From Escherichia phage vB_EcoM_G50: a stretch of 64,000 bases of DNA. The DNA lies in sequence record NC_054917.1. One strand, 5' to 3'. The position numbers were made by a program, and so were the translations under genes. Every line of letters begins with the position of its first letter. Position 1 is the first letter of the stretch. The notes beneath the pieces were generated by a model. The model was not told where the DNA came from, searched no databases, and worked only from the letters and a program-made list of their open reading frames with translations. Below, piece by piece: positions 3,240 to 62,741 of this stretch.

Positions 3240-4400
3240 TTATGGATAGGTATAGATGATACCAGTTTCTAAAGCAGTTTTATGAATGATGTATCCATTA
3301 CGCGATTCTTGAACATCAACTTCTGGATAGTCTTTCATCATCTTCTGAAGAGTGTAACGATGCAGGTAGTATTTACTATCTGGATCTTCAGTTTTCCAAT
3401 CTTTACCTTCTTCAGTCATTTTTTGGATTTCATCCATAACCCACCAACCGCACCAGATATAAGCTGAAGTACGATGTGGAAGAGGATGAACATAAGGCAA
3501 TTCACCTTCCGGTTCCGGAGCAACTTTATCAGTTACCTGAACTTGACCTTCTGCTGTAATAGTTTTGCTATCATAATCAGTGGCAGTAACAGTTGCAGTA
3601 ACTTCAATGGTTTGACTTCCAATAGATGATGTATCAACGGTGTATACATTAGTTGACCCTTCTACAGGAGAAGAATCTTTCTTCCATGAATACGTAATTT
3701 GTGCTTCTTCTGGAGCATCCGTAACGTTAGCAGTAAATGTAGCCGAAGCATCTTGCTGAACATTAATAGAAGGAGGAGTCAATGTAACCTGTGGATTCAT
3801 TGTCTTTTTATTAACCGTTAATGATACTTCATTAGAAGTAACTTCCTTTTCATTATCTTCATTAGAAGTAACTTCCTTTTCATTATAATTTTCTGCAGTT
3901 ACTTGGGCTACACACTTAATTGTTTTAACTCCGCTTGTGGAAGGAGTGTAATTGAATGTAGCAGAAGTTGCTTCGCCTACAGGAGAACCGTCAACGTACC
4001 ATTGATACGTAGCAGTTGCGCCAGATGGCTGTGAAGCTAAGGCAGCAGTAAATTCAACGGCTGTTCCGATTACTCCTTCTGGAGGACTATTAGGAGTTAC
4101 AGCTAAGGTAGTTGTTTGTGTCTTATTTTGAACTGTGATAGTTGTAGTAGCTTCTGCTGTTTCAGCATCAGTATCTGGGACTGGGTTTGTTGCAACTACT
4201 TTAATAGTCTTTTGACCGGCAGGTCCTTTTAATACATAATTAAAAGTTGCTTCAGCTCCATCTTGTGGAAAATCATCTACAGTCCAAGCATATGTAATAG
4301 GTCCATCTCCAGTTTGACCACTGGGTGTAGCAGTAAACTGCTTAGTTTCATCAATAACCCCTGTCGGTGTTTTAGGAGTTATATCAACTGTAAAAGCCAT
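3240..4400 (-). CDS. hoc: Highly immunogenic outer capsid protein Hoc (Ig-like domains), carrying an in-frame 10-aa tandem duplication
   Basis: 386 aa; MAFTVDITPKTPTGVIDETKQFTATPSGQ... and C-terminal ...YVHPLPHRTSAYIWCGWWVMDEIQKMTEEGKDWK match T4 Hoc (376 aa as I recall). Confidence 0.9.
   Translation of the reverse strand: MAFTVDITPKTPTGVIDETKQFTATPSGQTGDGPITYAWTVDDFPQDGAEATFNYVLKGPAGQKTIKVVATNPVPDTDAETAEATTTITVQNKTQTTTLAVTPNSPPEGVIGTAVEFTAALASQPSGATATYQWYVDGSPVGEATSATFNYTPSTSGVKTIKCVAQVTAENYNEKEVTSNEDNEKEVTSNEVSLTVNKKTMNPQVTLTPPSINVQQDASATFTANVTDAPEEAQITYSWKKDSSPVEGSTNVYTVDTSSIGSQTIEVTATVTATDYDSKTITAEGQVQVTDKVAPEPEGELPYVHPLPHRTSAYIWCGWWVMDEIQKMTEEGKDWKTEDPDSKYYLHRYTLQKMMKDYPEVDVQESRNGYIIHKTALETGIIYTYP
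3827..3886 (-). repeat. Perfect 30-bp tandem duplication (2 copies) inside hoc, encoding NEKEVTSNED twice
   Basis: cttcattagaagtaacttccttttcattat at 3827-3856 repeated exactly at 3857-3886. Confidence 0.9.
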
Positions 4401-15178: not shown

Positions 15179-15182
15179 CAAT

Positions 15183-15210
15183 GGGGACCGAAAGGTCCCC
15201 ATATTTTTAT
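15183..15210. terminator. Bidirectional terminator hairpin between gene 54 and the 96-aa ORF
   Basis: ggggacc-gaaa-ggtcccc followed by T-rich tract. Confidence 0.55.
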
Positions 15211-15497
15211 TTACGGAATGAAATAAAAGCAGCAACTGAAGCAACTAAACTGTCTTCAATATAAACTTCAATTTTTACCGGAGCTTCTGACTCAAATTTA
15301 CCTGTTACTACACCTTGGAAAATACTTTCAGTCTGCTCTGGCTTTGAAAAATTTTCAGAAGGAAAAATTCCGAACTTTTTATCTGTTCCAAAAATTTTGA
15401 TAAATTCATCGTAAACTGCTTCATTAAAAGCATTATCAGCAGGAATAACGCCTTCAACTACAAGTTCTTGACCTAAAAAGCGTAAAGAAGATTTCAT
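15207..15497 (-). CDS. Hypothetical protein (T4 alt.-3 position)
   Basis: 96-aa ORF with GAGGAA Shine-Dalgarno; early-type promoter immediately upstream. Confidence 0.65.
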   Translation of the reverse strand: MKSSLRFLGQELVVEGVIPADNAFNEAVYDEFIKIFGTDKKFGIFPSENFSKPEQTESIFQGVVTGKFESEAPVKIEVYIEDSLVASVAAFISFRK

Positions 15498-15528
15498 TTT
15501 GTGTTCCTCATGTTATGTAAGTAAAATT

Positions 15529-15558
15529 ATTATAACACAACACGAGGGACTTGTAAAC
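15529..15558 (-). promoter_or_regulatory. Early-type promoter (-10 TATAAT, -35 GTTTAC) for the 96-aa ORF
   Basis: Plus strand attata ... 18 nt ... gtaaac; part of a ~56-bp segment nearly identical to 31281-31336. Confidence 0.45.
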
Positions 15559-17615
15559 TACATTTTGAACTTTTTAGACATTCCGTTGATGTTAACCAAA
15601 GAAGCCAAGATTTGAGAAACTTCGTTTTCCTCTTCTTTTGATTCTTCTACAAGGAATTGATTAAATCCAGCCATTGGACGAACTTCACCAGTTTCCATCA
15701 GATGATCGCCATCATATACCGATTCTTCTAATTGTTCAGAAGGAGGAACGATTGTGCCTTCGATTAAATACTTGTTATAAGCAGTTTCTTTCATCATGTA
15801 CGTGCTCACTTTATTAATCTTCAGCAAAATTCCACGCGGTAAAATAACTTCAGCTTCTGATGGAAATCCTGATAAATGACCTGGAACGATAACTTTGATT
15901 CGCTCAGCTCCTTTTATTACCATACCTACGCTAGTTTCAGCATCTTCATTAGCATATGCGGAATGACTACCCGTATGCATTAAATCTTCAGCATCAACTG
16001 AACCTTCTCCTTCACCAGAAAATACTGCACTGGAATCATCTAGGGCCATATAGTTTTTACCATACTCACCGAAGATATTTGGTTTAAGCGATGTGGATAC
16101 GAAGTTCTTGAAATAGAACATTTTATTTTCAATATTATGACGTAAAGTTTTAAAGGTAACTTCTTGTCCACGGTAAAGTGTAGTTCCTGGAGGAAGAACT
16201 GATCCTTTGGCAAAGGCAGAATCCATTGTCTCGATGTGTTTAATAGCTCGTTCCATGTATTCTTCACGGGTAGAATCTGGTTTACCCAAGAGGAACGAGT
16301 TCATTTCAACATATGAATCTGCACAATAATCTTCAATTACATCGGACTCAGCCTGAGTTAATCCTTTTGGGGGTACTTCAGTACTTGCATATTCATACGC
16401 TTGAGAAGCAGACTCATTAATCAATTTATAAATGCCATTCATGACAAATTGAATAATAGCTACCTTTTCATCTGGCGTGGCTTTAGAACCTTTAACTAAA
16501 TCATTGACAATTTTCTTAATAACATCAAAGCTATTAGAAATATTAATGTCAGCGAGATCGCTTAAAATTTTATCAGTTTTATAATCAAAAAATTCTTTAT
16601 TCTTTAAATATTCCTGAGAACCTTGATATGTTATATCGCTCTGTAACTTGATAGATGGATCACGTAAACGTGCATGAGCCAATGCAATATGATTTCGGAA
16701 GCTTTCTAATTCATAATCGCTAGATTTAAAACGAGAAGCACTTCTCATACCACCGATAGCTCCTTTGCTGAAGTTTGAACCAACCTGAATAACGCCAGAG
16801 TTCATTGGTCCTTCTGCTTTATATACCGGAACTTTAGATTCAAACTCTTGATATTTCTTAGCAGCGAAGCTATCACCCTGAAGTGAAGCATCGACAGTAG
16901 AATATTGAGCTTGTGCTGCTAATCGACGACTAATTTTAGTTTTCTGAATAACAGCTTGATCCGTACGCTTATCATTTTCTAAAGCAATAGAAGCAGCAAC
17001 AGCAACAGCTTTAGGAACAGCATTACCTGTTTTAACGTCTACATAAACATCACCAACCTTTGATTCAACCTTTGTGAATAACTCAGTTGAAATAGGAGGT
17101 ACACCTGGAATGTCTTCTAAATTGGCATTTTTACGGTAAACCATAATATATGTGTACTTTTTATCGTAATCCCAGATTTCCTTTAAAAGAACATATCGAC
17201 CTGCTCCTTTAGTACGCACTAAACGATCGGCAATAACTTGCATTTGACGAGCTGCACCGTTTGTTTTACTCTTTAATACGCGGAATAGGCATGCGTCAAT
17301 TTTGTACTGTTTCATTGTCTGAAGAGCAGTATCAAAAACCGCATTAATGACACCAATTGGATTTCCACCTAAGTTTTTAAGTTTAACTAATGATAGTTTC
17401 TCATTAACGCCTATCATTACGATATGCATCATTTTATCGCCTGGCTTAACGTTTTTATTTGTATCACCGCCAGAGGTGTATGTACAAAATCTAAATCCAG
17501 GAAGCACACTTTCTTCACCGGCTTGAATAGCAAAAATTTGAGGTATTTTATGCTTAGGATTTAAGTTAACAACCGGCGCCGAAGCGCCGTCAAATAATTC
17601 TGTAATAAGTTCCAT
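15558..17615 (-). CDS. Alt-like ADP-ribosyltransferase, second full-length paralog
   Basis: 685 aa; N-terminal ~300 aa closely parallel the adjacent Alt (MELITELFD..., CTYTSGGDTN, YKIDAC, QVIADRL); C-terminal ART signature YRG ... NFVSTSL ... AEVILPRG. Confidence 0.85.
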   Translation of the reverse strand: MELITELFDGASAPVVNLNPKHKIPQIFAIQAGEESVLPGFRFCTYTSGGDTNKNVKPGDKMMHIVMIGVNEKLSLVKLKNLGGNPIGVINAVFDTALQTMKQYKIDACLFRVLKSKTNGAARQMQVIADRLVRTKGAGRYVLLKEIWDYDKKYTYIMVYRKNANLEDIPGVPPISTELFTKVESKVGDVYVDVKTGNAVPKAVAVAASIALENDKRTDQAVIQKTKISRRLAAQAQYSTVDASLQGDSFAAKKYQEFESKVPVYKAEGPMNSGVIQVGSNFSKGAIGGMRSASRFKSSDYELESFRNHIALAHARLRDPSIKLQSDITYQGSQEYLKNKEFFDYKTDKILSDLADINISNSFDVIKKIVNDLVKGSKATPDEKVAIIQFVMNGIYKLINESASQAYEYASTEVPPKGLTQAESDVIEDYCADSYVEMNSFLLGKPDSTREEYMERAIKHIETMDSAFAKGSVLPPGTTLYRGQEVTFKTLRHNIENKMFYFKNFVSTSLKPNIFGEYGKNYMALDDSSAVFSGEGEGSVDAEDLMHTGSHSAYANEDAETSVGMVIKGAERIKVIVPGHLSGFPSEAEVILPRGILLKINKVSTYMMKETAYNKYLIEGTIVPPSEQLEESVYDGDHLMETGEVRPMAGFNQFLVEESKEEENEVSQILASLVNINGMSKKFKM

Positions 17616-17618
17616 GAT

Positions 17619-19715
17619 TTATCCTTGAACGAACTTGTAAGGCATGTTTGTAATATCTATGCAAGACGCAATAATTCCAAGAGATGATTCTACTTTCTGT
17701 TTAACATTTGATGAAACAAACGATGCAAAGTCAACTCTGTCTTCTATTTCAATATCATCTGTCATTGCAACTACTTCACCGGTTTCCATTAGACGGTCAC
17801 CGTCATAAATGACTGATTCGGTGAGCTCTTCTGTAGTCATAACTTCAGCTTGAATGAGTTTTGTATTATTAGATGTTGTTCCGTCATTATTAGAAGCATC
17901 AGTTATTTTATTAACTTTGACCATCAATCCGCGTGGTAGAATAACTTCAGCTTCTGTTGCTATTCCGAGACTTCCTGGATATACAACATTAACTTTATGA
18001 GCTCCATCAATTGCCCATCCTATTTGAACTTTAACGTATTCAGGATTTTCTTTATACGCTCTTATTTCGTTTGGATTAATAGTTATTCCTTCTTCATTTT
18101 TATCAACTGTTAATTCATTACGAGCTTCTGGTTCTAAAAGACCAATACCAGCATGCGTAATTCCAAAACGTCCAAAAATGATAGGAGTTAAAGAAGTAGA
18201 TACAAAATTTCTGAAATAGAACACTTTATTTTTAACTAGCGCTTCGTATATAGGAGCAGTCATACTTTGAGCACGATAAACTGTAATGCCTTCTGGTATA
18301 CGGTCACCATTTTCAAAAGCTGAATCTAAATTATTTATCGCAGATTCAATTTCTTTTTCACTCATTACATCATATCGTTCTGGATTGTAGCGGCCTAAAA
18401 GAAGATTATTGATGTCAGTATATCCTGATCCACAATACTCTCTAATGCCGCGCTTTTGTGATGGAGTATATTTAGAACCATCACGGGCAATAGTAATATC
18501 AATCATTGGACCTGCACCAATTCCAGAAAAGCTATAAATCATTCGTTTGAGGAATTTAGTTTTTGCTGCGTTCCAGGAATTTTTAGTTATTTCTTCCCAG
18601 ACTTCATCTGGCTGTCCTTTACGGGTTTTATTATGTTTATCAAGCCAATTATCTTTATATTCTTCAAAGAATTGATTAACAGCTGCTGCGTATTTCTCTA
18701 AACATTTTATTGAAGTGGTTGGTTCATTTTTAATCGCATTAAGAATTACATCTTTAATTTTTTCAGAAACTTCATTAACCTCACTTTTTGAAAAGAATTT
18801 ATAGTCATAGTGAAGTTCATCTGCGGTTCCTTCGGCAATGATTTTTGCTGCCTTAGTTTTAGAAGCTAATGAATTAATTCCAAGCTTCATTTCTTCTGCT
18901 TCGGGAATTAAAGGAGCTGTAGCAGGTTTATTGAAATTAGCTGCGGTAGATTCATATTTCTGGAATAATTCACTTTCAAATCTAGAAGATTCCAATGACT
19001 GACTTTGCGCAATTGCTCTACGGGAAATTTTAACTTTAACGATTACAGCTTGGTCAGAACGTTTATCGTTTTCTTGCGCAATAGATGCCGCAATTGCCTC
19101 ATTTTTAGTTACTTGAGCTCCAGTATCTTTATTGATATAAACATCGCCGACTTTCGATTCAACTTTAGTAAAGAGCTCGGTACTAATTTCCGGAACTCCT
19201 GGAATGTCTTCTAGTGATACATTTTTGCGATGTATAAGAATATATGCATACTTTTTATCGTAATCCCAGAGTTCCTTAAGAAGGACGTATCTGCCACCTG
19301 AACGACTGCGGATAAGTCTATCAGCAATAACTTGAATTTGTCGAGCTTGACCAGCAGTTTTAGACTTAAGAATACGAAGCATACAGGCATCAATTTTATA
19401 CTGACGCATCGTTTGCATCGCAACAGTAAAAACTGAATTGATGTAATTAATTGGGCTTGGACCGAGACCTTTCAATTTAGCAATTGAACCTTTAGCAGTT
19501 AATGTAAAAGGAACAATGTGCATCATTTTATCGCCCATCTTTAGATCACGGTTAGTATCACCTCCAGATGTATAGGTACATAAACGAAAGCCTGGTTGTT
19601 CAATTGCGTCATCAACATGAACTGAAAAAATTTGCGGTATTTTCTTCTTTGGATTTAAGTTTGTAATCGGAAGAGTAGTATCTTCGTCAAATAATTCTGT
19701 AATGAGTTCCATCAT
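17619..19715 (-). CDS. alt: Alt ADP-ribosyltransferase (head-packaged; modifies host RNA polymerase alpha)
   Basis: 698 aa, MMELITELFDEDTTLPITNLNPKKKIPQIF...; R-S-E type ART motifs (VYRAQ, FVSTSLTP, EAEVILPRG); position upstream of ligase as in T4; late promoter upstream. Confidence 0.9.
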   Translation of the reverse strand: MMELITELFDEDTTLPITNLNPKKKIPQIFSVHVDDAIEQPGFRLCTYTSGGDTNRDLKMGDKMMHIVPFTLTAKGSIAKLKGLGPSPINYINSVFTVAMQTMRQYKIDACMLRILKSKTAGQARQIQVIADRLIRSRSGGRYVLLKELWDYDKKYAYILIHRKNVSLEDIPGVPEISTELFTKVESKVGDVYINKDTGAQVTKNEAIAASIAQENDKRSDQAVIVKVKISRRAIAQSQSLESSRFESELFQKYESTAANFNKPATAPLIPEAEEMKLGINSLASKTKAAKIIAEGTADELHYDYKFFSKSEVNEVSEKIKDVILNAIKNEPTTSIKCLEKYAAAVNQFFEEYKDNWLDKHNKTRKGQPDEVWEEITKNSWNAAKTKFLKRMIYSFSGIGAGPMIDITIARDGSKYTPSQKRGIREYCGSGYTDINNLLLGRYNPERYDVMSEKEIESAINNLDSAFENGDRIPEGITVYRAQSMTAPIYEALVKNKVFYFRNFVSTSLTPIIFGRFGITHAGIGLLEPEARNELTVDKNEEGITINPNEIRAYKENPEYVKVQIGWAIDGAHKVNVVYPGSLGIATEAEVILPRGLMVKVNKITDASNNDGTTSNNTKLIQAEVMTTEELTESVIYDGDRLMETGEVVAMTDDIEIEDRVDFASFVSSNVKQKVESSLGIIASCIDITNMPYKFVQG

Positions 19716-19735: not shown

Positions 19736-19743
19736 TATTTATA
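19736..19743 (-). promoter_or_regulatory. Late promoter (TATAAATA on minus strand) for alt
   Basis: Plus-strand tatttata ~20 nt upstream of alt start. Confidence 0.55.
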
Positions 19744-24084: not shown

Positions 24085-24152
24085 TTTTATTCTCCGAGAT
24101 GTTTAATTGCGGTACAGGTATATAATATCATATCCTGTACCAAAGTAAACAA

Positions 24153-24485
24153 TTATTTTACTACTTTCCAATGTTGCATGTCAAGTTTACCAACTTTTTT
24201 CATCTTCTCAATTAAGCGTTCGGCACGTTGGCGGGCTGTAACATAATACCATTCACCCAATTCATTTTGTTCAATTTTTCCAACGATTACTGTATTCAAT
24301 TCATAAATCCAACCAGTAAAGAAATTATGAACTTGAATTGTAAAGGTGAAATCTGTTCCCATACCTTCTGTTGTTTCTACTTCAATAATATCACCTTCAA
24401 CTGCCATTAAGAACCACATAGTTTCATCATATTTACCATTGAAGCATTTAGTTTTAACTGTAGCGTTCAGATTAATCGTTTTCAT
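24153..24485 (-). CDS. Hypothetical protein
   Basis: 110-aa ORF. Confidence 0.65.
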   Translation of the reverse strand: MKTINLNATVKTKCFNGKYDETMWFLMAVEGDIIEVETTEGMGTDFTFTIQVHNFFTGWIYELNTVIVGKIEQNELGEWYYVTARQRAERLIEKMKKVGKLDMQHWKVVK

Positions 24486-24512
24486 TTTATTCTCCTTTGT
24501 TTGTGTAAGATA

Positions 24513-24542
24513 ATACTATCACAAAGGAACTATACTGTAAAC
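24513..24542 (-). promoter_or_regulatory. Early-type promoter upstream of the 110-aa ORF
   Basis: Plus-strand atacta ... 18 nt ... gtaaac; flanking inverted repeat tttgtg/cacaaa. Confidence 0.4.
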
Positions 24543-27449: not shown

Positions 27450-27970
27450 GTTGATCCCAGCTCCTTACTTTCAACGTTTTTAACTAATTTGACAGAAACT
27501 AATTCGGCATCTTGGGTAATCATTACCGGGCCTTCTTCATACTCTTCAAGATATTCTAGAGCTTTCTTTTTAGCTTCTTCCTTCGTATCAGTTTGAGCAT
27601 AGATATAAAACATACAACCAGTAATACCTACTACTTTCCACTTAATTTCTTTATCAGTTTTAATTTCAAATTTACTGATAGAGTCATCTTTTTGAACTTC
27701 TTCGAAAAAATAATATTCTGACATATAAGTAATTGAAAATAGCGGGCTTTCTTTATAAGATTCGCCCATTACATCAACAGCTTTATACCAGCAATCGTCA
27801 ATTTCGCGTTTAATGCTAATAACATTTTTCGCAGGATCTATTTTTACTTTAAATGAATTTTCCCCAATAAACTGAGCAATTCGTTTATTAGCCCCACAAG
27901 TTTCATTAAAAATATCTTTATATCCAGCTTTAAAGCGATAAACCTTATCTTCTTCAAACCATTCGCTCAT
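27443..27970 (-). CDS. Hypothetical protein
   Basis: 175-aa ORF with Shine-Dalgarno; promoter-like element upstream. Confidence 0.65.
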   Translation of the reverse strand: MSEWFEEDKVYRFKAGYKDIFNETCGANKRIAQFIGENSFKVKIDPAKNVISIKREIDDCWYKAVDVMGESYKESPLFSITYMSEYYFFEEVQKDDSISKFEIKTDKEIKWKVVGITGCMFYIYAQTDTKEEAKKKALEYLEEYEEGPVMITQDAELVSVKLVKNVESKELGSTC

Positions 27971-27991
27971 TTCAATTTCCTCATTTGTTTT

Positions 27992-28030
27992 GGTAGAGCT
28001 ATAATATCACAACTCTACCGTAAAGTAAAC
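27992..28030 (-). promoter_or_regulatory. Early-type promoter with inverted repeat around the -10 element
   Basis: ggtagag-N14-ctctacc inverted repeat enclosing ataata; gtaaac at 28025-28030. Confidence 0.4.
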
Positions 28031-30141: not shown

Positions 30142-30431
30142 TTATCCTCTTTTAACTCTTGGCGATAATAACATATCATAGTTTTTTGGTCATGTACATA
30201 TCGTTTTACATCATTAAGCCAAATACGAAATTCCTGGGAATCTTCGAATGGCATACCGACCCAAGCTTTACCATCAATAACTTTAACTTGCCAGGATAGT
30301 TTAGCTTCATCATATGACTTTATCTGCACAGGCCAATTAGGATGAACTGTTTCTTTCTTTACTTCTAGAGGCTTTGTCGAACAACCAACTAGAAGACCAA
30401 TAGATAATATTACTGCTGATAGTTTAATCAT
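30132..30431 (-). CDS. Putative o-spanin (outer-membrane lipoprotein; T4 PseT.2 equivalent)
   Basis: 99 aa; N-terminal lipoprotein signal MIKLSAVILSIGLLVGCS (lipobox LVGC); immediately follows the i-spanin-like ORF. Confidence 0.65.
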   Translation of the reverse strand: MIKLSAVILSIGLLVGCSTKPLEVKKETVHPNWPVQIKSYDEAKLSWQVKVIDGKAWVGMPFEDSQEFRIWLNDVKRYVHDQKTMICYYRQELKEDKCK

Positions 30432-30781
30432 TTAGAAAGGTCCTGGATGTCTTCTGCGAACTTGTTGAAGGAGTTGTTGATTTGTTTTTCAACCAATCCT
30501 GGCTTATGAGCCACCACATCCGCCTTCTTTGCGTCTTTGCGCAGTTTTTCATTTTCACGCTCAATAGCAGCAATTGCCTCACGATTTTTATTATTCATCG
30601 CATCAATATAATTATACTGAATTCGCAAATTATCTAATGCTAAAGCGTTTTCATTGGCCGTTTTTGTAATTTCTACAACAGACGTTTCTAATCTTTCAAT
30701 TTTACTTTTTAAAATTAAAGAAGTTCCGCCCAATGCAATTACAATTAATAGCAAGCCTGCTGTCGTATTACTTAATTGCAT
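30428..30781 (-). CDS. Putative i-spanin (T4 PseT.3 equivalent)
   Basis: 117 aa; N-terminal transmembrane helix TAGLLLIVIALGGTSLIL followed by coiled-coil-like charged domain. Confidence 0.65.
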   Translation of the reverse strand: MQLSNTTAGLLLIVIALGGTSLILKSKIERLETSVVEITKTANENALALDNLRIQYNYIDAMNNKNREAIAAIERENEKLRKDAKKADVVAHKPGLVEKQINNSFNKFAEDIQDLSK

Positions 30782-31278
30782 AAAGTTTTAATAACCTCTA
30801 TAATATCGTCTTGAGAAAGACCGTTAATTAAAATATGATGTTCAGCAGGAGATTTAGAAATTTTAAAGCATGCCTCAACATCTTCTGCCATATCCGATGC
30901 GCTACGATTTGGATTACTAATTCCAAGACGATGTTTTCCCGTTAAAGGATTAACGATGATATAGCATTTACAGTTGTTAATATGAACATTAGGTTGAGTC
31001 TGATTAATGAACACATCACAATCATATTTCGCAAGCTGATTTTCTAAAAAGACTTTCATCTCCTCAACTGCATCAGGAAGCATATCACGAGCTTGCTCAA
31101 GACGACGATTTCGATATTCTTTAATGGTCGTTTTCCGCTTGACTTGCTTAGCTAAATCTTTCTTAAGATCGGTGATATATCCAACTCGACGATTTCCTTT
31201 AAATACAGAAATACCATCTGTAGTATCACCGTATGCTTCAACGACCATTTCAGTAGTAATAAGCTGTAAATCCATCAT
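30772..31278 (-). CDS. alc: Alc-position protein (T4 Alc blocks elongation on cytosine-containing DNA)
   Basis: 168-aa ORF (167 from second Met) between spanins and rnlA; call by position and size only. Confidence 0.7.
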   Translation of the reverse strand: MMDLQLITTEMVVEAYGDTTDGISVFKGNRRVGYITDLKKDLAKQVKRKTTIKEYRNRRLEQARDMLPDAVEEMKVFLENQLAKYDCDVFINQTQPNVHINNCKCYIIVNPLTGKHRLGISNPNRSASDMAEDVEACFKISKSPAEHHILINGLSQDDIIEVIKTLCN

Positions 31279-31306
31279 AAAGTCCTCATGTTATGTCAGT
31301 AAGACT

Positions 31307-31336
31307 ACTGTAACACAACACGAGGGACTTGTAAAC
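31307..31336 (-). promoter_or_regulatory. Promoter upstream of the alc-position ORF
   Basis: actgta ... 18 nt ... gtaaac; ~56-bp segment nearly identical to 15503-15558. Confidence 0.45.
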
Positions 31337-31339
31337 AGC

Positions 31340-32927
<1,588 letters not shown>

Positions 32928-40138: not shown

Positions 40139-40381
40139 TCAAACAGACTTTTTCACAATTTTCCAATCAGCTTTAAACTGATCAACGTCAGAATGGTAAA
40201 TCCAGAATCCTGCGCTTTCTCCATCCTCATAAAGAGGGCATCCATCGCATTCATCTTCCCATCCCATATCACGCAAAAGACGTTCAGCTTTTTCAACAAG
40301 TTCAGAATCTTTACCGATGATATTAAAATACCATTTACCTCTAACTTCTGAATCTTTAATGCTCTGACGTTGTAATCTCAT
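40139..40381 (-). CDS. Hypothetical protein (frd.3 position)
   Basis: 80-aa ORF; promoter-like element upstream. Confidence 0.6.
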   Translation of the reverse strand: MRLQRQSIKDSEVRGKWYFNIIGKDSELVEKAERLLRDMGWEDECDGCPLYEDGESAGFWIYHSDVDQFKADWKIVKKSV

Positions 40382-40406
40382 TTTATTCTCCTTAGTTGAT
40401 AGGGTA

Positions 40407-40436
40407 ATAGTATCACACTACTACCCTTCTGTAAAC
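40407..40436 (-). promoter_or_regulatory. Early-type promoter upstream of the 80-aa ORF
   Basis: atagta ... 18 nt ... gtaaac with inverted repeat agggta/taccct around the -10. Confidence 0.45.
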
Positions 40437-41091: not shown

Positions 41092-41134
41092 ATTATTTTC
41101 CTCTTTAATCATCAGCAGTATTGCCGATAGTTGT

Positions 41135-41164
41135 ATAGTACCATAGTCCTTGATGTATGTAAAC
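41135..41164 (-). promoter_or_regulatory. Early-type promoter downstream of the gene 32 terminator
   Basis: gatagttgtatagtaccatagtccttgatgtatgtaaac plus A/T-rich upstream tract; family shared with 58264, 62126, 61401. Confidence 0.5.
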
Positions 41165-41195
41165 TGTTTTGTGAAAAAATTTTTGAAATAAAAAA

Positions 41196-41214
41196 GGGGA
41201 CCTCTAGGGTCCCC
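41196..41214 (-). terminator. Rho-independent terminator of gene 32
   Basis: ggggacc-tcta-gggtcccc followed on minus strand by TTTTTTATTTC. Confidence 0.6.
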
Positions 41215-41236
41215 AATTAATTAGTAATATAATCTA

Positions 41237-44510: not shown

Positions 44511-47500
44511 ATGGCCGAGATTAAAAGAAAGTTCAGAGCAGAAGATGGTCTGGACGCAGGTGGCGATAAAATAATCAACGTAGCTTTAGCTGATCGTACC
44601 GTAGGAACTGACGGTGTTAACGTTGATTACCTAATTCAAGAAAACACAGTTCAACAATACGATCCAACTCGTGGATATTTAAAAGATTTTGTAATCATTT
44701 ATGATAACCGCTTTTGGGCTGCTATAAATGATATTCCAAAACCGGCAGGAACTTTTAATAGTGGACGCTGGAGAGCATTGCGTACTGATGCTAACTGGAT
44801 CACAGTCTCATCTGGTTCATATCAATTAAAATCCGGTGAAGCTATTTCGGTTAACACTGCAGCTGGTAATGATATTACATTTACTTTACCATCTTCCCCA
44901 ATTGACGGTGATACTATCGTTCTCCAAGATATTGGAGGAAAACCTGGAGTTAACCAAGTTTTAATTGTAGCTCCAGTGCAAAGTATTGTAAACTTCAGAG
45001 GTGAACAAGTACGATCAGTACTAATGACTCATCCAAAATCACAGTTGGTTTTAATTTTTAGTAATCGTCTGTGGCAAATGTATGTTGCTGATTATAGTAG
45101 AGAAGCTGTAATTGCGACACCAGCGAATACTTATCAAGCGCAATCCAATGATTTTATCGTACGTAGATTTACTTCTGCCGCACCGATTAATATTAAACTT
45201 CCGAGATTTGCTAATCACGGTGATATTATTAATTTCGTCGATTTGGACAAATTAAATCCACTTTATCATACAATTGTCACAACATACGATGAAACTACTT
45301 CAGTACAAGAAGATGGAACTCATTCTATTGAAGGCCGTACATCAATTGACGGTTTCTTGATGTATGATGATAATGAAAAATTGTGGAGATTGTTTGACGG
45401 GGACAGTAAAGCACGTTTACGTATTATAACGACTAATTCAAACATTCGTCCAAATGAAGAAGTTATGGTATTTGGTGCGAATAATGGAATAACTCAAACA
45501 ATTGAACTCCAGCTTCCAACTAATATTTCTGTTGGTGATACTGTTAAAATTTCCATGAATTACATGAGAAAAGGACAAACAGTTAAAATCAAAGCTGCCG
45601 GTGAAGATAAAATTGCTTCTTCAGTTCAATTGCTGCAATTCCCAAAACGTTCAGAATATCCGCCTGAAGCTGAATGGGTGACTGTTCAAGAATTAGTTTT
45701 TAACGGTGAAACTAATTATGTTCCAGTTTTACAACTTGCTTATATAGAAGATTCTGACGGAAAATACTGGGTAGTACAGCAAAACGTTCCAACCGTAGAA
45801 AGAGTTGATTCTTTAAATGATTCTACTAGAGCGAGATTAGGCGTAATTGCTTTAGCTACACAAGCTCAAGCTAACGTCGATTTAGAAAATTCTCCGCAAA
45901 AAGAATTAGCAATTACACCAGAAACATTAGCTAACCGTACTGCTACAGAAACTCGCAGAGGTATCGCAAGAATAGCAACAACTGCTCAAGTGAATCAGAA
46001 CACCACATTCTCTTTTGCTGACGATATTATCATCACTCCTAAAAAGCTGAATGAAAGAACTGCTACAGAAACTCGCAGAGGCGTTGCTGAAATTGCTACG
46101 CAACAGGAAACTAATGCAGGTACTGATGATACTACAATCATCACTCCTAAAAAGCTTCAAGCTCGACAAGGTTCTGAATCATTATCAGGTATTGTAACCT
46201 TTGTATCTACTACAGGAGCTACTCCAGCTTCTAGTCGTGAATTAAATGGTACAAACGTTTATAATAAAAACACTAATAATTTAGTCGTTTCGCCTAAAGC
46301 TTTGGATCAGTATAAAGCTACTCCAACGCAACAAGGTGCAGTAATTTTAGCAGTTGAAAGTGAAGTAATTGCTGGACAAAGCCAAGAAGGATGGGCAAAT
46401 GCGGTTGTAACGCCAGAAACGTTACACAAAAAGACATCGACTGATGGAAGAATTGGTTTAATTGAAATTGCTACGCAAAGTGAAGTTAATACAGGAACTG
46501 ATTATACTCGTGCAGTCACTCCTAAAACTTTAAATGACCGTATAGCAACTGAAAGTTTAAGTGGTATAGCTGAAATTGCTACGCAAGTTGAATTCGACGC
46601 AGGCGTCGACGATACTCGTATCTCTACACCATTAAAAATTAAAACCAGATTTAATAGTACTGATCGTACTTCTGTTGTTGCTCTATCTGGATTAGTTGAA
46701 TCAGGAACTCTCTGGGACCATTATACCCTTAATATTCTTGAAGCAAATGAGACACAGCGTGGTACACTTCGTGTAGCTACACAAGTTGAAGCTGCTGCAG
46801 GAACATTAGATAATGTTTTAATAACTCCTAAAAAGCTTTTAGGTACTAAATCTACCGAATCGCAGGAAGGTGTTATTAAAGTTGCAACTCAGTCTGAAAC
46901 TGTAACTGGAACGTCAGCAAATACTGCTGTATCTCCAAAAAATTTAAAATGGATTGTGCAGAGTGAACCTACTTGGGCAGCTACTACTGCGATAAGAGGT
47001 TTTGTTAAAACTTCATCCGGTTCAATTACATTCGTTGGTAATGATACAGTTGGTTCTACACAGAGCTTAGAGCTATACGAGAAAAATAGCTATGCAGTAT
47101 CACCGTACGAATTAAACCGTGTATTAGCAAATTATTTGCCGTTAAAAGCAAAAGCCGCTGACGCGAATTTATTAGATGGTCTAGATTCATCCCAGTTCAT
47201 TCGTAGGGATATTGCACAGACGGTTAATGGTTCACTAACCTTAACCCAACAAACGAATCTAAGTGCCCCTCTTGTATCATCTAGTACTGCTACGTTTGGT
47301 GGATCAGTTTCGGCAAATAGTACATTAACTATTTCTAATACTGGAACGGCAACTCGTCTGATTTTTGAGAAAGGACCTCAAACTGGAACTAACCCAGTAC
47401 AGACGATGACTATCAGAGTTTGGGGAAATCAGTTTGGTGGCGGTTCAGATACAACACGTTCTACTGTATTTGAAGTTGGTGATGAAACGTCTAATCACTT

Positions 47501-58234: not shown

Positions 58235-58275
58235 TTTCTAATCTCCGTAATTCTGTATCAGTAGTTGATAGTTGT

Positions 58276-58305
58276 ATAATACCACAGTATGCTTTGGTTG
58301 TAAAC
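58276..58305 (-). promoter_or_regulatory. Early-type promoter for motA
   Basis: gttgatagttgtataataccacagtatgctttggttgtaaac with A/T-rich upstream tract. Confidence 0.5.
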
Positions 58306-58335
58306 CGTTTTGTGAAAAAAATTTTGAAATAAAAA

Positions 58336-58355
58336 AGGGAGAGCCTCGGCTCTCC
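58336..58355 (-). terminator. Rho-independent terminator after the gene 52 operon
   Basis: gggagagcc-tc-ggctctccc followed on minus strand by TTTTTTATTTC. Confidence 0.6.
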
Positions 58356-58361
58356 CTAAAA

Positions 58362-58511
58362 TTACTGCATGACTGTGATAACTGTCATGATAACACGTTG
58401 AATGCCGAACGCAAGAAGACCTCCTGCTACGGCTGGAACAACACCTAAACCCGCCAGTAAAATGCTACCAGATACTAATGCCGCGCTTGTAATACCTATA
58501 AATGGACTCAT
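58362..58511 (-). CDS. Small hydrophobic membrane peptide (~49 aa)
   Basis: ATG overlaps gene 52 stop (ATGA); MSPFIGITSAALVSGSILLAGLGVVPAVAGGLLAFGIQRVIMTVITVMQ; followed by strong terminator hairpin. Confidence 0.5.
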   Translation of the reverse strand: MSPFIGITSAALVSGSILLAGLGVVPAVAGGLLAFGIQRVIMTVITVMQ

Positions 58512-61284: not shown

Positions 61285-61384
61285 AGTAAGCGTTTAATAC
61301 ATCAATCATTAAAACGATTGGGAATATACTCAAAACTACTAGTATTATAACTACATTCCATATAGCTTTAACAATCTTTTTCAT
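61271..61384 (-). CDS. Small hydrophobic peptide (37 aa)
   Basis: Internal ATG with GGAGGAA Shine-Dalgarno; MKKIVKAIWNVVIILVVLSIFPIVLMIDVLNAYFGFM; early promoter upstream overlaps the ORF-track N-terminal extension. Confidence 0.45.
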   Translation of the reverse strand: MKKIVKAIWNVVIILVVLSIFPIVLMIDVLNAYFGFM

Positions 61385-61412
61385 TTTCTGTTCCTCCGTA
61401 GTTGATAAGATA

Positions 61413-61442
61413 ATAATACCACAGAGGAACAGTCTTGTAAAC
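61413..61442 (-). promoter_or_regulatory. Early-type promoter upstream of the 37-aa hydrophobic ORF
   Basis: gttgataagataataataccacagaggaacagtcttgtaaac. Confidence 0.4.
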
Positions 61443-61900: not shown

Positions 61901-62103
61901 TAATCCGCTAAAAGATCGACGATTGCATCACGAAGACACTTATTCGCAATACGTTTAAGAGCAATTTCAGTTTCTGGAGCATTTTGAATAATCATTGAAT
62001 TCAATTCAGCCTCAGCAAACTGAAGTTCTTTAACTAATTCAGCTTTATATTTTCCTTGCCCTTTCTTAGCTTTTGCTCGTTTTAATTCAACTGTAGTAAA
62101 CAT
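61897..62103 (-). CDS. Hypothetical basic protein
   Basis: 68 aa from internal ATG with GGAGAA Shine-Dalgarno (MFTTVELKRAKAKKGQ...); the longer ORF-track version would include the upstream promoter. Confidence 0.55.
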   Translation of the reverse strand: MFTTVELKRAKAKKGQGKYKAELVKELQFAEAELNSMIIQNAPETEIALKRIANKCLRDAIVDLLADY

Positions 62104-62137
62104 TTTATTCTCCAAATCCGTATCAGTTGATAGTTGT

Positions 62138-62167
62138 ATAGTACCACAGTCCTTGTGGTATGTAAAC
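62138..62167 (-). promoter_or_regulatory. Early-type promoter downstream of denB
   Basis: gttgatagttgtatagtaccacagtccttgtggtatgtaaac; near-palindrome ccacagtccttgtgg in the spacer. Confidence 0.45.
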
Positions 62168-62183
62168 CGTTTTGTGAAAATTT

Positions 62184-62741
62184 TTAAATGGAAAGATACC
62201 ATCCGTTGTAGTTGCTTTTTCTTACAACCTTACGAAGGTCTTCTCTATCACCGATGAACTTCGGAGTGTACTGGATGACACCTGGATGAATTTCTTTAGT
62301 GTTGAATATAATTATACAGTCAGCGACCTGATGATTCAGAATGGGCCCTAGATTTATTCCAGAACCGTATGGATACTCCCCGCTGCATCCGGTTGTTACC
62401 GAAATCCAACGTGAGTCAGTTTGATGTGTTTTGACTTCTACACGAAGCCCACAGTATTTTGGATGCGCCAATACATCCCATGCGTATGTATACGGGTCAT
62501 TAACATCCTCTTGGCCTTTGTTAACATACCCGCTTAGCCAATCTGCTACAAAAAACTCTGCGTACACAGCGATACGACATCTTTCAATAACTTCTGCTTT
62601 ATCCTGGTTCGGGTTTTGTTTTAGAGAGTATCTTGCTGTATCAGCAATTTTGACCTTCATTTCACTAGTCAAGTCACTGTTCGATAGGGTAAATGTCGGA
62701 ATCTGAAATAGTCTCTGTAAACCTGGATTCGTTTTCTGCAT
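62184..62741 (-). CDS. denB: Endonuclease IV-position protein
   Basis: 185-aa ORF directly upstream of the ndd.x cluster and downstream of rIIB, size as T4 DenB. Confidence 0.8.
   Translation of the reverse strand: MQKTNPGLQRLFQIPTFTLSNSDLTSEMKVKIADTARYSLKQNPNQDKAEVIERCRIAVYAEFFVADWLSGYVNKGQEDVNDPYTYAWDVLAHPKYCGLRVEVKTHQTDSRWISVTTGCSGEYPYGSGINLGPILNHQVADCIIIFNTKEIHPGVIQYTPKFIGDREDLRKVVRKSNYNGWYLSI

What the first reader, a model, noticed from the sequence alone, without database searches (positions are those of the whole stretch)
15503..15558. Near-identical ~56-bp promoter/leader cassette present at two distant loci
The segment covering the Shine-Dalgarno, -10 and -35 (GTTTAC) region upstream of the 96-aa ORF (15503-15558) is almost identical to the segment upstream of the alc-position ORF (31281-31336): both read (g/a)t(t/c)cctcatgttatgt(a/c)agtaa, then 8 divergent nt, then the identical 26-mer taacacaacacgagggacttgtaaac. 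Conservation well beyond promoter consensus suggests duplication, recombination between the loci, or a shared regulatory or RNA-structural role.
Basis: seen in the sequence. Interest (0 to 1): 0.45.

Follow-up and report, generated by a model that had tools for sequence, protein, structure and literature searches.

The report
Duplicated early-promoter hairpin cassette (alc, alt.-3)
A 54-base promoter-plus-leader unit sits in front of two unrelated early genes of this T4-like phage, and it is conserved beyond promoter consensus because its two halves form a hairpin that should hide the ribosome-binding site on RNAs made from upstream, but not on RNAs started at its own promoter.

Summary
Window 15505-15558 and 31283-31336 (sense strand is minus) share 49/54 bases, including an exact 26-mer. 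Other early-promoter pairs in the window share 25.5/54 on average.

The window is a Tequatrovirus. Copy A lies between an Alt-like paralogue and alt.-3. Copy B lies between rnlA (gene 63) and alc. T4 has the same pair (53/54), and 498 database genomes hold two copies each.

Each copy runs from the -35 (GTTTAC) to the Shine-Dalgarno. The extra conservation fits an inverted repeat: the -35/-10 spacer (CCCTCGTGTTGTG) pairs with the leader (CATAACATGAGG). The -10 and the predicted start site fall in the loop.

At the rnlA-alc junction, 13 of 18 other Tevenvirinae lineages keep this architecture with different, compensating stem sequences. Cognate arms pair at -17.5 kcal/mol against -9.6 for non-cognate arms (0 of 100,000 permutations).

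The likely effect is that read-through RNA masks the ribosome-binding site (12-14 kcal/mol to open, against 3.6 for promoter-started RNA). The alt.-3 copy was probably taken from alc in the genus ancestor.

Closest known kinds are PeSL cassettes and the T4 e/soc/49/I-TevI hairpins, which use late promoters. The function is inferred, not shown. I rate it a new variant of a known kind.

The parts
15505..15558 (-). Repeat copy A: early promoter plus 5' leader cassette, from the -35 to the Shine-Dalgarno, upstream of alt.-3
   Evidence: 54-nt direct repeat, 49/54 identical to copy B (D11)
31283..31336 (-). Repeat copy B: the same cassette upstream of alc
15553..15558 (-). Copy A -35 element GTTTAC. 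Its G is the last base of the TAG stop of the upstream Alt-like ORF.
15529..15534 (-). Copy A -10 hexamer TATAAT, preceded by TGT (extended -10). It lies in the hairpin loop.
   Evidence: TTTACA-17-TATAAT, 11/12, TG yes; fold
15535..15550 (-). Copy A 5' arm of the hairpin, which is the promoter spacer (GT.CCCTCGTGTTGTG)
   Evidence: RNA fold -19 kcal/mol, z -4.4, 0/200 shuffles as good
15503..15518 (-). Copy A 3' arm of the hairpin, which is the 5' leader (ACATAACATGAGG.AC). It contains the SD GAGG at 15506-15509.
15522..15522 (-). Predicted transcription start of copy A (an A, 7 nt after the -10), between the two arms
   Evidence: Inferred from sigma-70 geometry; not measured
15207..15497 (-). 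alt.-3 (96 aa), the gene served by copy A
   Evidence: T4 omics: early RNA, early protein
15558..17615 (-). Alt-like ADP-ribosyltransferase paralogue (685 aa), whose transcripts read into copy A
   Evidence: No minus-strand terminator is predicted between it and alt.-3
19736..19743 (-). TATAAATA late-promoter motif just upstream of alt. It is a likely source of late read-through RNA across copy A.
   Evidence: alt is a late gene in T4
15181..15202 (.). Bidirectional terminator-like hairpin between gene 54 and alt.-3; end of the transcription unit
31331..31336 (-). Copy B -35 element GTTTAC, 3 nt after the rnlA stop codon
31307..31312 (-). Copy B -10 hexamer TACAGT, preceded by TGT, in the loop
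   Evidence: TTTACA-17-TACAGT, 9/12, TG yes
31313..31330 (-). Copy B 5' arm (AAGTCC.CTCGTGTTGTG)
   Evidence: RNA fold -25.7 kcal/mol, z -4.75, 0/200 shuffles as good
31280..31296 (-). Copy B 3' arm (ACATAACATGAGGACTT). It contains the SD GAGG at 31284-31287.
31300..31300 (-). Predicted transcription start of copy B
   Evidence: Inferred from geometry; not measured
30772..31278 (-). alc (168 aa), inhibitor of host transcription, the gene served by copy B
   Evidence: T4 omics: early RNA, early protein
31340..32500 (-). rnlA (gene 63, RNA ligase 1), whose transcripts read into copy B
   Evidence: No terminator is predicted between it and alc

Best explanation
One early-promoter/5'-leader cassette, running from the -35 GTTTAC to the Shine-Dalgarno GAGGA, is present twice in direct orientation. 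One copy lies in front of alc and the other in front of alt.-3.

The alc copy is ancestral. The alt.-3 copy was created in the ancestor of Tequatrovirus, when the alc cassette replaced the native alt.-3 promoter by recombination. The shared -35 and the shared ...CATGAGGA leader were the likely end-points. Exchange between the two loci still occurs occasionally.

The cassette is conserved beyond promoter consensus because it encodes a hairpin. The 17-nt promoter spacer is the 5' arm. The leader, including the SD, is the 3' arm. The -10 box and the start site lie in the loop.

RNA that reads in from the upstream gene (the late alt genes, or rnlA) contains both arms, folds, and buries the ribosome-binding site. 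RNA started at the embedded early promoter contains only the 3' arm and is translatable.

The net effect is that translation of alc and alt.-3 is tied to their own immediate-early promoter and insulated from upstream transcription.

Shown: the repeat, the promoter match, the complementarity, its co-variation across genera, and its spread through the genus. Inferred: the start site, the masking in vivo, and the selective reason.
For: - Repeat. The repeat is real and far beyond promoter consensus.
- Promoter. Both copies match sigma-70/T4 early promoters with an extended -10. Depositors annotate the alc copy as a predicted early promoter.
- Expression in T4. alc and alt.-3 are early-RNA/early-protein genes. 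Their upstream neighbours fall in other classes: alt late, alt.-1/-2 middle, rnlA early RNA with late protein.
- Fold. Sense-strand folds are -19 to -28.6 kcal/mol, z -3.9 to -4.95, with 0/200 shuffles as good.
- Masking. Opening SD..AUG costs 12.1-13.6 kcal/mol in read-through RNA against 3.6 in promoter-started RNA.
- Other lineages. At the rnlA-alc junction, 13 of 18 Tevenvirinae lineage representatives keep the layout -35 / anti-SD arm / -10 in loop / SD arm with different stem sequences. The difference in opening cost is 8-15 kcal/mol.
- Co-evolution of the arms. Cognate arm pairs average -17.5 kcal/mol against -9.6 for non-cognate pairs, with 0 of 100,000 permutations as good.
- Pair counts. 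On an unfitted MAFFT alignment of 10 sequences, 92.9% of cells pair, against 37-46% when the partners are slid. Four pairs change on both sides, two of them inside the SD (U-A/C-G and C-G/U-A).
- Variants within Tequatrovirus. Natural variants in the 5' arm are mostly pair-preserving transitions (G:U to A:U; C:G to U:G). One haplotype lengthens the alt.-3 stem to 18 bp by pairing with the alt.-3-specific flank. No change was seen in the 3' arm.
- Wobble pairs. The T4-type stem has 2-3 G:U pairs, which are valid only in the sense RNA (-23.9 sense against -14.6 antisense).
- Direction of the copy. alt.-3 promoters of five other genera have a short spacer hairpin instead.
- Fixation. 498 genomes hold 995 copies.
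- Read-through. No terminator separates the cassettes from the upstream genes, and a late-promoter motif precedes alt.
Against: - No transcription start, RNA structure or translation measurement was available.
- Across genera the inverted repeat folds equally well on either strand (mean -19.9 sense against -20.0 antisense). Comparative data alone do not prove that the sense RNA is the active form.
- Five of 18 alc lineages lack SD masking. L044 and L050 have a long hairpin that stops just before the SD. Mosigvirus and L061 have only a short spacer hairpin. L060 is unclear.
- Three other early promoters in the window have strong hairpins enclosing the -10 that leave the SD free. So do the 30.7 promoters of T4, Mosigvirus and EcS1. 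At that junction, masking and non-masking versions replace each other between genera. The hairpin may therefore have a more general role, with SD masking as a by-product.
- In other genera the stem begins 7 nt after the upstream stop codon. A terminating ribosome could open it, which would give coupling rather than silencing.
Confidence: 0.55

Rival explanations
1. Generic PeSL-type insulator. The stem-loop acts on upstream transcripts, not through the SD. It attenuates or terminates read-through, or it forms a protective 3' end for the upstream mRNA. The near-identity of the two copies simply reflects recombination between such linker cassettes.
For: - Arbiol et al. [quoted passage not shown] Their stem-loops lie between the -35 and -10 or overlap the -10, and one of them cut lacZ expression like a strong terminator.
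- Seven of 13 early promoters in the window have hairpins enclosing the -10 with z of -3 or lower, and three of these do not touch the SD.
- Masking and non-masking hairpins replace each other at orthologous junctions.
- There is no strand asymmetry across genera.
Against: - No U-tract follows the stem in either copy or in other genera (A-rich SD-AUG spacers). The terminator scan finds nothing there.
- Downstream of alc lie pseT.3/pseT.2 and further genes, with no promoter of their own seen here. Strong termination would starve them.
- The outermost pairs are SD:anti-SD in 13 of 18 lineages, and they co-vary with the SD variant.
Confidence: 0.22
2. Translational coupling device. On read-through RNA the hairpin keeps the SD closed until a ribosome finishing the upstream ORF melts the 5' arm. 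Downstream translation is then coupled to upstream translation rather than silenced.
For: The upstream stop codon abuts or overlaps the -35 in every lineague examined (TAGTTTACA in most). The 5' arm therefore begins only 7-13 nt after the stop, which is within or near the reach of a terminating ribosome. That reach is established knowledge of ribosome footprints, not a measurement made here.
Against: - In the two Tequatrovirus copies the core stem (CCTCG...) starts 12-16 nt after the stop, beyond the roughly 9 nt covered downstream of the A site.
- In T4, rnlA protein appears late while Alc appears early. This is the opposite of simple coupling.
Confidence: 0.1
3. DNA-level element. The inverted repeat around the -10 acts in DNA. 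It could be a cruciform or a single-strand hairpin that modulates promoter opening, a binding site for a factor that shuts off early promoters, or a recombination hot spot.
For: - The symmetry is strand-neutral across genera.
- How T4 shuts off its early promoters is unknown (review text seen).
- PeSL recombination is documented.
Against: - Stem sequences differ completely between promoters and between genera, so there is no common protein recognition sequence.
- The T4-type stem holds 2-3 G:T/A:C mismatches as DNA, and its variants add U:G wobbles. This is poor for a cruciform.
Confidence: 0.08
4. No function beyond an ordinary promoter and ribosome-binding site. On this view the identity is left over from a duplication and is kept uniform by gene conversion alone.
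For: The same variant haplotype at both loci shows that exchange occurs. Most genomes have nearly identical copies.
Against: - Differences between copies and between phages concentrate in the loop and spare both arms.
- The hairpin at alc is kept with compensatory changes in lineages that have no second copy.
Confidence: 0.05

Closest known systems
PeSL (promoter-early stem-loop) cassettes of T4-type phages (Arbiol et al. 2010, PMC2839356; Comeau et al. 2014, PMC4122927)
   Same: [quoted passage not shown]
- A strong sigma-70-type early promoter, a stem-loop placed between the -35 and -10 or overlapping the -10, and the SD at the 3' end.
- Several similar copies per genome, which serve as substrates for recombination that reshuffles genes.
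- Copy A borders an indel: the Alt paralogue is full-length here and reduced to alt.-1/alt.-2 in T4.
   Different: - PeSL stem-loops were interpreted as terminators or attenuators. In the T4/PST pair they were described as lying just upstream of the promoter.
- Pairing of the spacer with the SD was not proposed.
- Here the two copies are 15.8 kb apart with essential genes between them, not flanking an ORFan.
- The stem is long (13-18 bp), has no U-tract, and co-varies at one orthologous locus across genera.
RBS-sequestering hairpins with an internal promoter in T4 genes e, soc, 49 and I-TevI (reviewed in PMC3014915, section 29)
   Same: The SD lies in a helix whose 5' strand is upstream of a promoter embedded in the structure. 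Long read-through transcripts are therefore translationally silent, and short promoter-proximal transcripts are active.
   Different: - The known cases use late promoters (TATAAATA). They keep late or harmful proteins from being made from early or middle read-through RNA.
- Here the embedded promoter is an immediate-early one. The logic is reversed: early proteins are not made from later read-through RNA.
- alc and alt.-3 are not among the listed cases.
- There is no experimental proof here.
T4 early promoter consensus (GTTTAC-N14-gtggTAttaT; Miller et al. 2003 as quoted in a GenBank note; Hinton 2010, PMC2988021)
   Same: The -35 GTTTAC, 17-bp spacing, TGn extended -10, and a -10 of the form TAnnnT. 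The location is in front of early genes.
   Different: The consensus does not specify the spacer or the leader. This pair is identical at 17/17 spacer positions, against a mean of 6 for other promoter pairs.
Hairpin-mediated translational coupling (for example RNA coliphage cistrons)
   Same: The SD of a downstream cistron is closed in a hairpin next to the end of the upstream cistron.
   Different: A promoter sits inside the hairpin. In Tequatrovirus the core stem lies slightly beyond the reach of a terminating ribosome.

Membership tests
T4-type early (sigma-70) promoter | -35 GTTTAC/TTTACA, 17 +/- 1 bp spacer, -10 TAnnnT | tested here: met
   Copy A TTTACA-17-TATAAT (11/12). Copy B TTTACA-17-TACAGT (9/12).
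T4-type early (sigma-70) promoter | Extended -10 TGn | tested here: met
   TGT precedes both hexamers.
T4-type early (sigma-70) promoter | Drives transcription immediately after infection; 5' end mapped | not testable with these tools
   Indirect evidence only: alc and alt.-3 are early-RNA genes in T4. No TSS map was found in the library.
PeSL cassette | [quoted passage not shown] | tested here: met
   In copy A the stop TAG overlaps the -35. In copy B the stop is 3 nt before it. The SD is 5-8 nt before the ATG.
PeSL cassette | Stable stem-loop within or next to the promoter | tested here: met
   13-18 bp stem enclosing the -10, z -4.4 and -4.75.
PeSL cassette | Stem-loop works as a transcription terminator or attenuator | tested here: inconclusive
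   No U-tract and no terminator call. Attenuation in vivo cannot be tested here.
PeSL cassette | Repeated copies that mediate recombination or indels | tested here: met
   There are two copies per genome. The same variant haplotype occurs at both loci. Copy A abuts the Alt-paralogue indel that separates this phage from T4.
RBS-sequestering hairpin with an internal promoter (T4 e/soc/49/I-TevI type) | SD and/or AUG base-paired in the long transcript | tested here: met
   Prediction only: P(unpaired) of GAGG is 0.00 in read-through RNA, and the opening cost is 12-14 kcal/mol.
RBS-sequestering hairpin with an internal promoter (T4 e/soc/49/I-TevI type) | Transcription start lies between the two strands of the helix | tested here: inconclusive
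   Promoter geometry predicts +1 at 15522 and 31300, in the loop. Not measured.
RBS-sequestering hairpin with an internal promoter (T4 e/soc/49/I-TevI type) | The internal promoter is a late promoter (TATAAATA) | tested here: not met
   The internal promoter is of the early sigma-70 type. There is no TATAAATA in either cassette.
RBS-sequestering hairpin with an internal promoter (T4 e/soc/49/I-TevI type) | Demonstrated block of translation on the long RNA | not testable with these tools
   Needs toeprinting or reporter fusions.
Intrinsic (Rho-independent) terminator | GC-rich stem followed by a run of U | tested here: not met
   The tails are AACACAAAAUG and CUUUAUGAUG. Other genera have A-rich tails.
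Any curated RNA family (Rfam 15) | Match at the gathering threshold | tested here: not met
   0 matches in the whole window.

The most novel reading that the evidence does not exclude
Promoter-embedded hairpins may be a general, conserved design of T-even immediate-early promoters. Seven of 13 promoters in this window have one, and it co-varies at two orthologous junctions across genera.

On this reading the hairpin makes each small early gene translatable only from its own promoter. Once early initiation stops, read-through RNA keeps flowing but the early proteins are no longer made.

This would be the mirror image of the late-gene hairpins of e, soc and 49. It could account for part of the still unexplained decline of early protein synthesis about 3 min after infection, which is independent of AsiA and ModA.
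Probability: 0.25. Interest if true: 0.7.

Novelty: new variant of a known kind. Interest (0 to 1): 0.52.

Why it matters
T4 is the reference system for phage gene regulation. Even so, the available reviews list RBS-masking hairpins only for a few late or selfish genes. They describe extra consensus in early promoters as unexplained 'other bits of information'.

The analysis gives a concrete and testable reason for that extra conservation at two early genes of current interest. Alc shuts off host transcription. Alt.-3 is the gene whose extension mutants escape the CmdTAC defence system. The analysis also shows the same architecture at other early promoters.

If the masking is real, it adds an early-only translational gate to T4's temporal programme. 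It would also matter for engineering T4-like phages: inserting genes behind these cassettes, or reading into them from upstream, would not give the expected expression.

The pair is also a clean natural example of a regulatory cassette being copied between loci and then kept alike.

Tried and rejected
- **RNAalifold.** Run on a MAFFT alignment of 28 alc upstream regions, it gave no consensus structure. The loop lengths shift the register by 1-3 nt between genera. I replaced it with an alignment-free test of cognate against non-cognate arms and with pair counts on a sub-alignment that is in register.
- **Covariance model.** A model built from the Karam/Gelderland-type cassettes did find both window copies and two further SD-masking promoters (61442 and 24542). 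Its alignment mixed in reverse-strand hits and mis-registered the T4 type, so I did not use it for counting.
- **Strand asymmetry.** I expected G:U pairs to favour the sense strand. This holds only within Tequatrovirus, not across genera.
- **Extension into coding sequence.** Alt.-3 and Alc show no similarity.
- **Intrinsic terminator.** Rejected.
- **Known RNA family.** None found.
- **RegB target.** I read both copies and found no GGAG motif in this phage's cassette: the SD is GAGGA. Some other genera do have GGAG in the stem.
- **Related loci.** Single-protein searches of IMG/VR returned only a handful of close relatives. An alignment-based search was needed.
- **Literature.** Searches for a prior description of this repeat, or of an alc/alt.-3 hairpin, found none. 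Miller et al. 2003 could not be read, so an earlier mention there or in the 1994 T4 book cannot be excluded.

Full report
**1. What is there**

The window is a T4-like phage of the genus Tequatrovirus. A 2-kb stretch around the first locus is 99.3% identical to Shigella phage vb_GEC_SH_GT and 97-98% identical to hundreds of others. The second locus behaves the same way.

All relevant genes are on the minus strand.
- Copy A of the repeat lies between the stop codon of a 685-aa Alt-like ADP-ribosyltransferase paralogue (15558..17615) and the 96-aa gene alt.-3 (15207..15497).
- Copy B lies between rnlA/gene 63 (31340..32500) and alc (30772..31278).

The repeat is 54 nt long (15505-15558 and 31283-31336) and 49/54 identical. 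It includes an exact 26-mer found nowhere else in the window.

Read on the sense strand, it runs:
- GTTTAC (-35);
- AAGTCCCTCGTGTTGTG (spacer, with an extended -10 TGT);
- TATAAT or TACAGT (-10);
- about 10 variable nt;
- ACATAACATGAGGA (leader with the Shine-Dalgarno).

Each copy continues with its own 5-8 nt and then the ATG.

Both copies are called as sigma-70-type promoters with a TG extension. The two proteins are unrelated, so the repeat is purely regulatory.

**2. More than promoter consensus**

Thirteen sites in the window, all on the minus strand, fit GTTTAC-N17-19-TAnnnT. Aligned at the -35, the other 77 pairs share on average 25.5 of 54 positions (maximum 39) and 6 of 17 spacer positions (maximum 14). 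Copies A and B share 49/54 and 17/17.

**3. Spread**

T4 itself has the pair, 53/54 identical. In the phage collection, 498 records hold 995 copies. That is two per genome, with no third locus. The duplication is therefore fixed in the genus.

Most genomes, like T4, carry the alc-type loop at alt.-3 as well: 353 of 498 fall in the same identity band as T4. The loop of this window's copy A (perfect TATAAT, AATTTTACTTAC) is a minority variant.

**4. The hairpin**

The spacer CCCTCGTGTTGTG(TTA) is complementary to the leader (TAA)CATAACATGAGG, with two or three G:U pairs. As RNA, the sense strand folds at -19 to -28.6 kcal/mol. The z-scores are -3.9 to -4.95, and none of 200 shuffles does as well. 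The antisense strand is clearly weaker in this genus.

The -10 box sits in the loop. The start site predicted from promoter geometry (15522 and 31300) sits there too. A transcript started at the cassette's own promoter therefore has only the 3' arm.

With 150 nt of upstream context, the SD is fully paired, and opening SD..AUG costs 12.1-13.6 kcal/mol. In the promoter-started RNA it costs 3.6.

No terminator separates the cassettes from the upstream genes. A TATAAATA late-promoter motif sits just upstream of alt. Read-through RNA across copy A is therefore expected late in infection.

**5. Comparative evidence**

I collected the rnlA-alc junction from other Tevenvirinae. Of 33 distinct sequences with a GTTTAC, most keep the same layout with quite different stems:

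| Lineage | 5' arm | 3' arm |
|---|---|---|
| Karamvirus | TCTCCATTTGGTT | AACCAAATGGAGA |
| Gelderlandvirus | TCTCCGTTT | AAACGGAGA |
| a Klebsiella group | TCCTCATCAG | CTGATGAGGA |
| Bragavirus | ACCTCTCATTTT | AAAATGAGAGGT |
| Dhakavirus | TCTCCTCAT | ATGAGGAGA |

Further variants are listed.

Among 18 lineage representatives, 13 show a difference of 8-15 kcal/mol between read-through and promoter-started RNA in the cost of opening the ribosome-binding site.

An alignment-free test paired each 5' arm with every 3' region. Cognate pairs average -17.5 kcal/mol and non-cognate pairs -9.6. None of 100,000 permutations reached the observed mean.

On an unfitted MAFFT alignment of ten sequences that are in register, 92.9% of cells pair, against 37-46% when the partners are slid. 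Four pairs change on both sides, two of them inside the SD.

The arms therefore co-evolve, and the SD is part of the selected helix.

**6. Origin of the second copy**

In Dhakavirus, Mosigvirus, Marfavirus, Karamvirus and Gelderlandvirus, alt.-3 also follows an Alt gene directly and has an early promoter. There the spacer holds a short hairpin of its own (for example CCACA-TGGA-TGTGG), and the SD is free. The long hairpin is therefore native to alc and was imported at alt.-3 in the Tequatrovirus ancestor.

The end-points coincide with motifs that both promoters already shared: GTTTACA, and the leader ...AACATGAGGA, which alt.-3 has in other genera as well.

The T4 5' arm is a perfect Watson-Crick match to the Mosigvirus alc leader CAACAACACGAGG (-20.6 kcal/mol). 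This suggests that the G:U pairs arose when the leader changed. That last step is inference.

Exchange continues. A three-substitution 5'-arm haplotype (GTTCCTTATG) is found at alt.-3 in five sampled phages and at alc in phage JB75.

Those substitutions keep or extend pairing in the sense RNA: C:G becomes U:G, G:U becomes A:U, and a new pair forms with the alt.-3-specific flank. Two other variants each break one pair. No change was seen in the 3' arm. Most variation lies in the loop.

**7. Mechanism and its limits**

The best-supported reading is an insulator. On RNAs that enter from the upstream gene, the ribosome-binding site is buried. On RNAs started at the embedded early promoter, it is open. 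Alc and Alt.-3 are then made only while their own immediate-early promoter fires.

Published T4 data fit this reading. alc and alt.-3 are early at both the RNA and the protein level. alt is late, alt.-1/-2 are middle, and RnlA protein appears late.

Four points count against it.
- Nothing has been measured at these sites.
- Across genera the repeat folds equally well on either strand.
- Five of 18 alc lineages do not mask the SD.
- Other early promoters have equally significant hairpins that enclose the -10 but leave the SD free.

On the last point, 7 of the 13 promoters in the window have z of -3 or lower. At the 30.8-30.7 junction, masking versions (Enterobacter phage id4496, Salmonella phage S16) and non-masking versions (T4 type, Mosigvirus, EcS1) replace each other between genera.

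This leaves room for a more general role of promoter-embedded hairpins. The main candidate is attenuation or 3'-end formation, as proposed for PeSLs. Coupling to upstream translation and a DNA-level effect are also possible. SD masking would then be only one implementation of that role.

**8. Relation to what is known**

Arbiol et al. (2010) defined PeSLs in RB49/phi1 as cassettes running from stop codon to ATG. They contain a strong early promoter and an SD, plus a stem-loop that may sit between the -35 and -10 or overlap the -10. The authors interpreted the stem-loops as terminators and as recombination linkers.

Comeau et al. (2014) extended the idea to the T4/PST pair, where they placed the stem-loops just upstream of the promoter.

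The post-transcriptional review lists RBS-masking hairpins with an internal promoter only for e, soc, 49, I-TevI and some homing-endonuclease genes. All of these use late promoters.

The element here combines both ideas. It is a PeSL-like early cassette whose stem-loop is an RBS mask.

I found no description of the alc/alt.-3 repeat or of this hairpin. There is no Rfam family. The T4 records carry no annotation for it, and other records mark only a 'predicted early promoter'. Miller et al. 2003 could not be consulted.

**9. Verdict**

The element is a duplicated early-promoter/leader cassette with a conserved, co-varying hairpin between the spacer and the SD. It is a new variant of known kinds, and its functional claim is testable but untested.

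Noticed in passing
window 61376-61442, 24483-24542, 24086-24150, 27966-28030, 40372-40436 (all minus strand): Five further early-promoter-like sites have strong inverted repeats that pair the -35/-10 spacer with sequence just after the -10 (z -3.0 to -6.1).
- At 61442 a 15-bp stem buries the SD (CTGTTCCTCTGTGGT/ACTACGGAGGAACAG).
- At 24542 (T4 30.8) the SD is also in the stem.
- At 24150 (T4 30.7), 28030 (T4 Pe133295 region) and 40436 (T4 frd.1) the stem encloses the -10 but leaves the SD free.

A covariance model built only from alc cassettes of other genera picks out exactly the four SD-masking sites in the window.
   Followed up: partly
L069-L073 (30.8-30.7 junction of Mosigvirus, EcS1, Enterobacter phage id4496, Klebsiella phage Roth20, Salmonella phage S16): The hairpin embedded in the 30.7 promoter is kept with different stems in other genera. 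In id4496 and S16 the stem TCCTCCGTTGTAT/ATACAACGGAGA masks the SD. In the T4 type, Mosigvirus and EcS1 it does not.
   Followed up: partly
window 62103-62167 and 41100-41164; L020-L024 (alt.-3 promoters of other genera); L018, L048, L061, L062 (alc promoters): There is a second promoter type, with a short hairpin wholly inside the -35/-10 spacer. Examples are ACCACA-AGGAC-TGTGGT, CCACA-TGGA-TGTGG, ACATCC-ATGGAA-GGATGT and ACAACC-ATGGAA-GGTTGT. The stems show compensatory changes, and the 3' half overlaps the conserved gtggTA element.
   Followed up: no
window 41126-41223, 58267-58364, 62129-62226: A 98-nt repeat family (63-76% identical) combines a GC-rich terminator stem-loop (GGGGACCCTAGAGGTCCCC followed by a T run on the sense strand), an A/T-rich tract and an early promoter. 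This is the classic PeSL layout, with the stem-loop upstream of the -35 (family D1).
   Followed up: no
window 15558-17615 and about 17619-19712: There are two tandem full-length alt genes; repeat families spaced about 2,094-2,103 nt apart show the duplication (D3, D9, D10, D13, D20). T4 keeps only the remnants alt.-1/alt.-2 of the second gene, and its deletion ends about 22 nt upstream of cassette A (...AAAAAGTTCAAAATGTAG is retained).
   Followed up: partly
L018/L048 (Mosigvirus rnlA-alc junction): The Mosigvirus alc leader CAACAACACGAGG is a perfect complement of the Tequatrovirus 5' arm CCTCGTGTTG(TTG), although Mosigvirus itself has a spacer-hairpin promoter there (-20.6 kcal/mol). This suggests that the promoter halves of these cassettes are swapped independently of the leader halves.
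   Followed up: no
L016, L036, L037, L063 (VR7-like Gaprivervirus): These phages have an extra 77-aa ORF between rnlA and alc, annotated as Alc-like. It is preceded by a GC-rich terminator-like hairpin and has no GTTTAC promoter in front of alc.
   Followed up: no
window 3827-3886: A perfect tandem duplication of a 30-nt unit (CTTCATTAGAAGTAACTTCCTTTTCATTAT, two copies) (D19).
   Followed up: no
window 45939-46837: Several families of 33-46-nt imperfect repeats lie within about 900 nt, presumably repeated motifs inside one coding sequence (D2, D7, D8).
   Followed up: no
window 30772-30781: The end of alc overlaps the start of pseT.3 (i-spanin, 30428..30781) by 10 nt. Anything that silences alc translation on read-through RNA could therefore also affect coupled translation of the spanin genes.
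   Followed up: no
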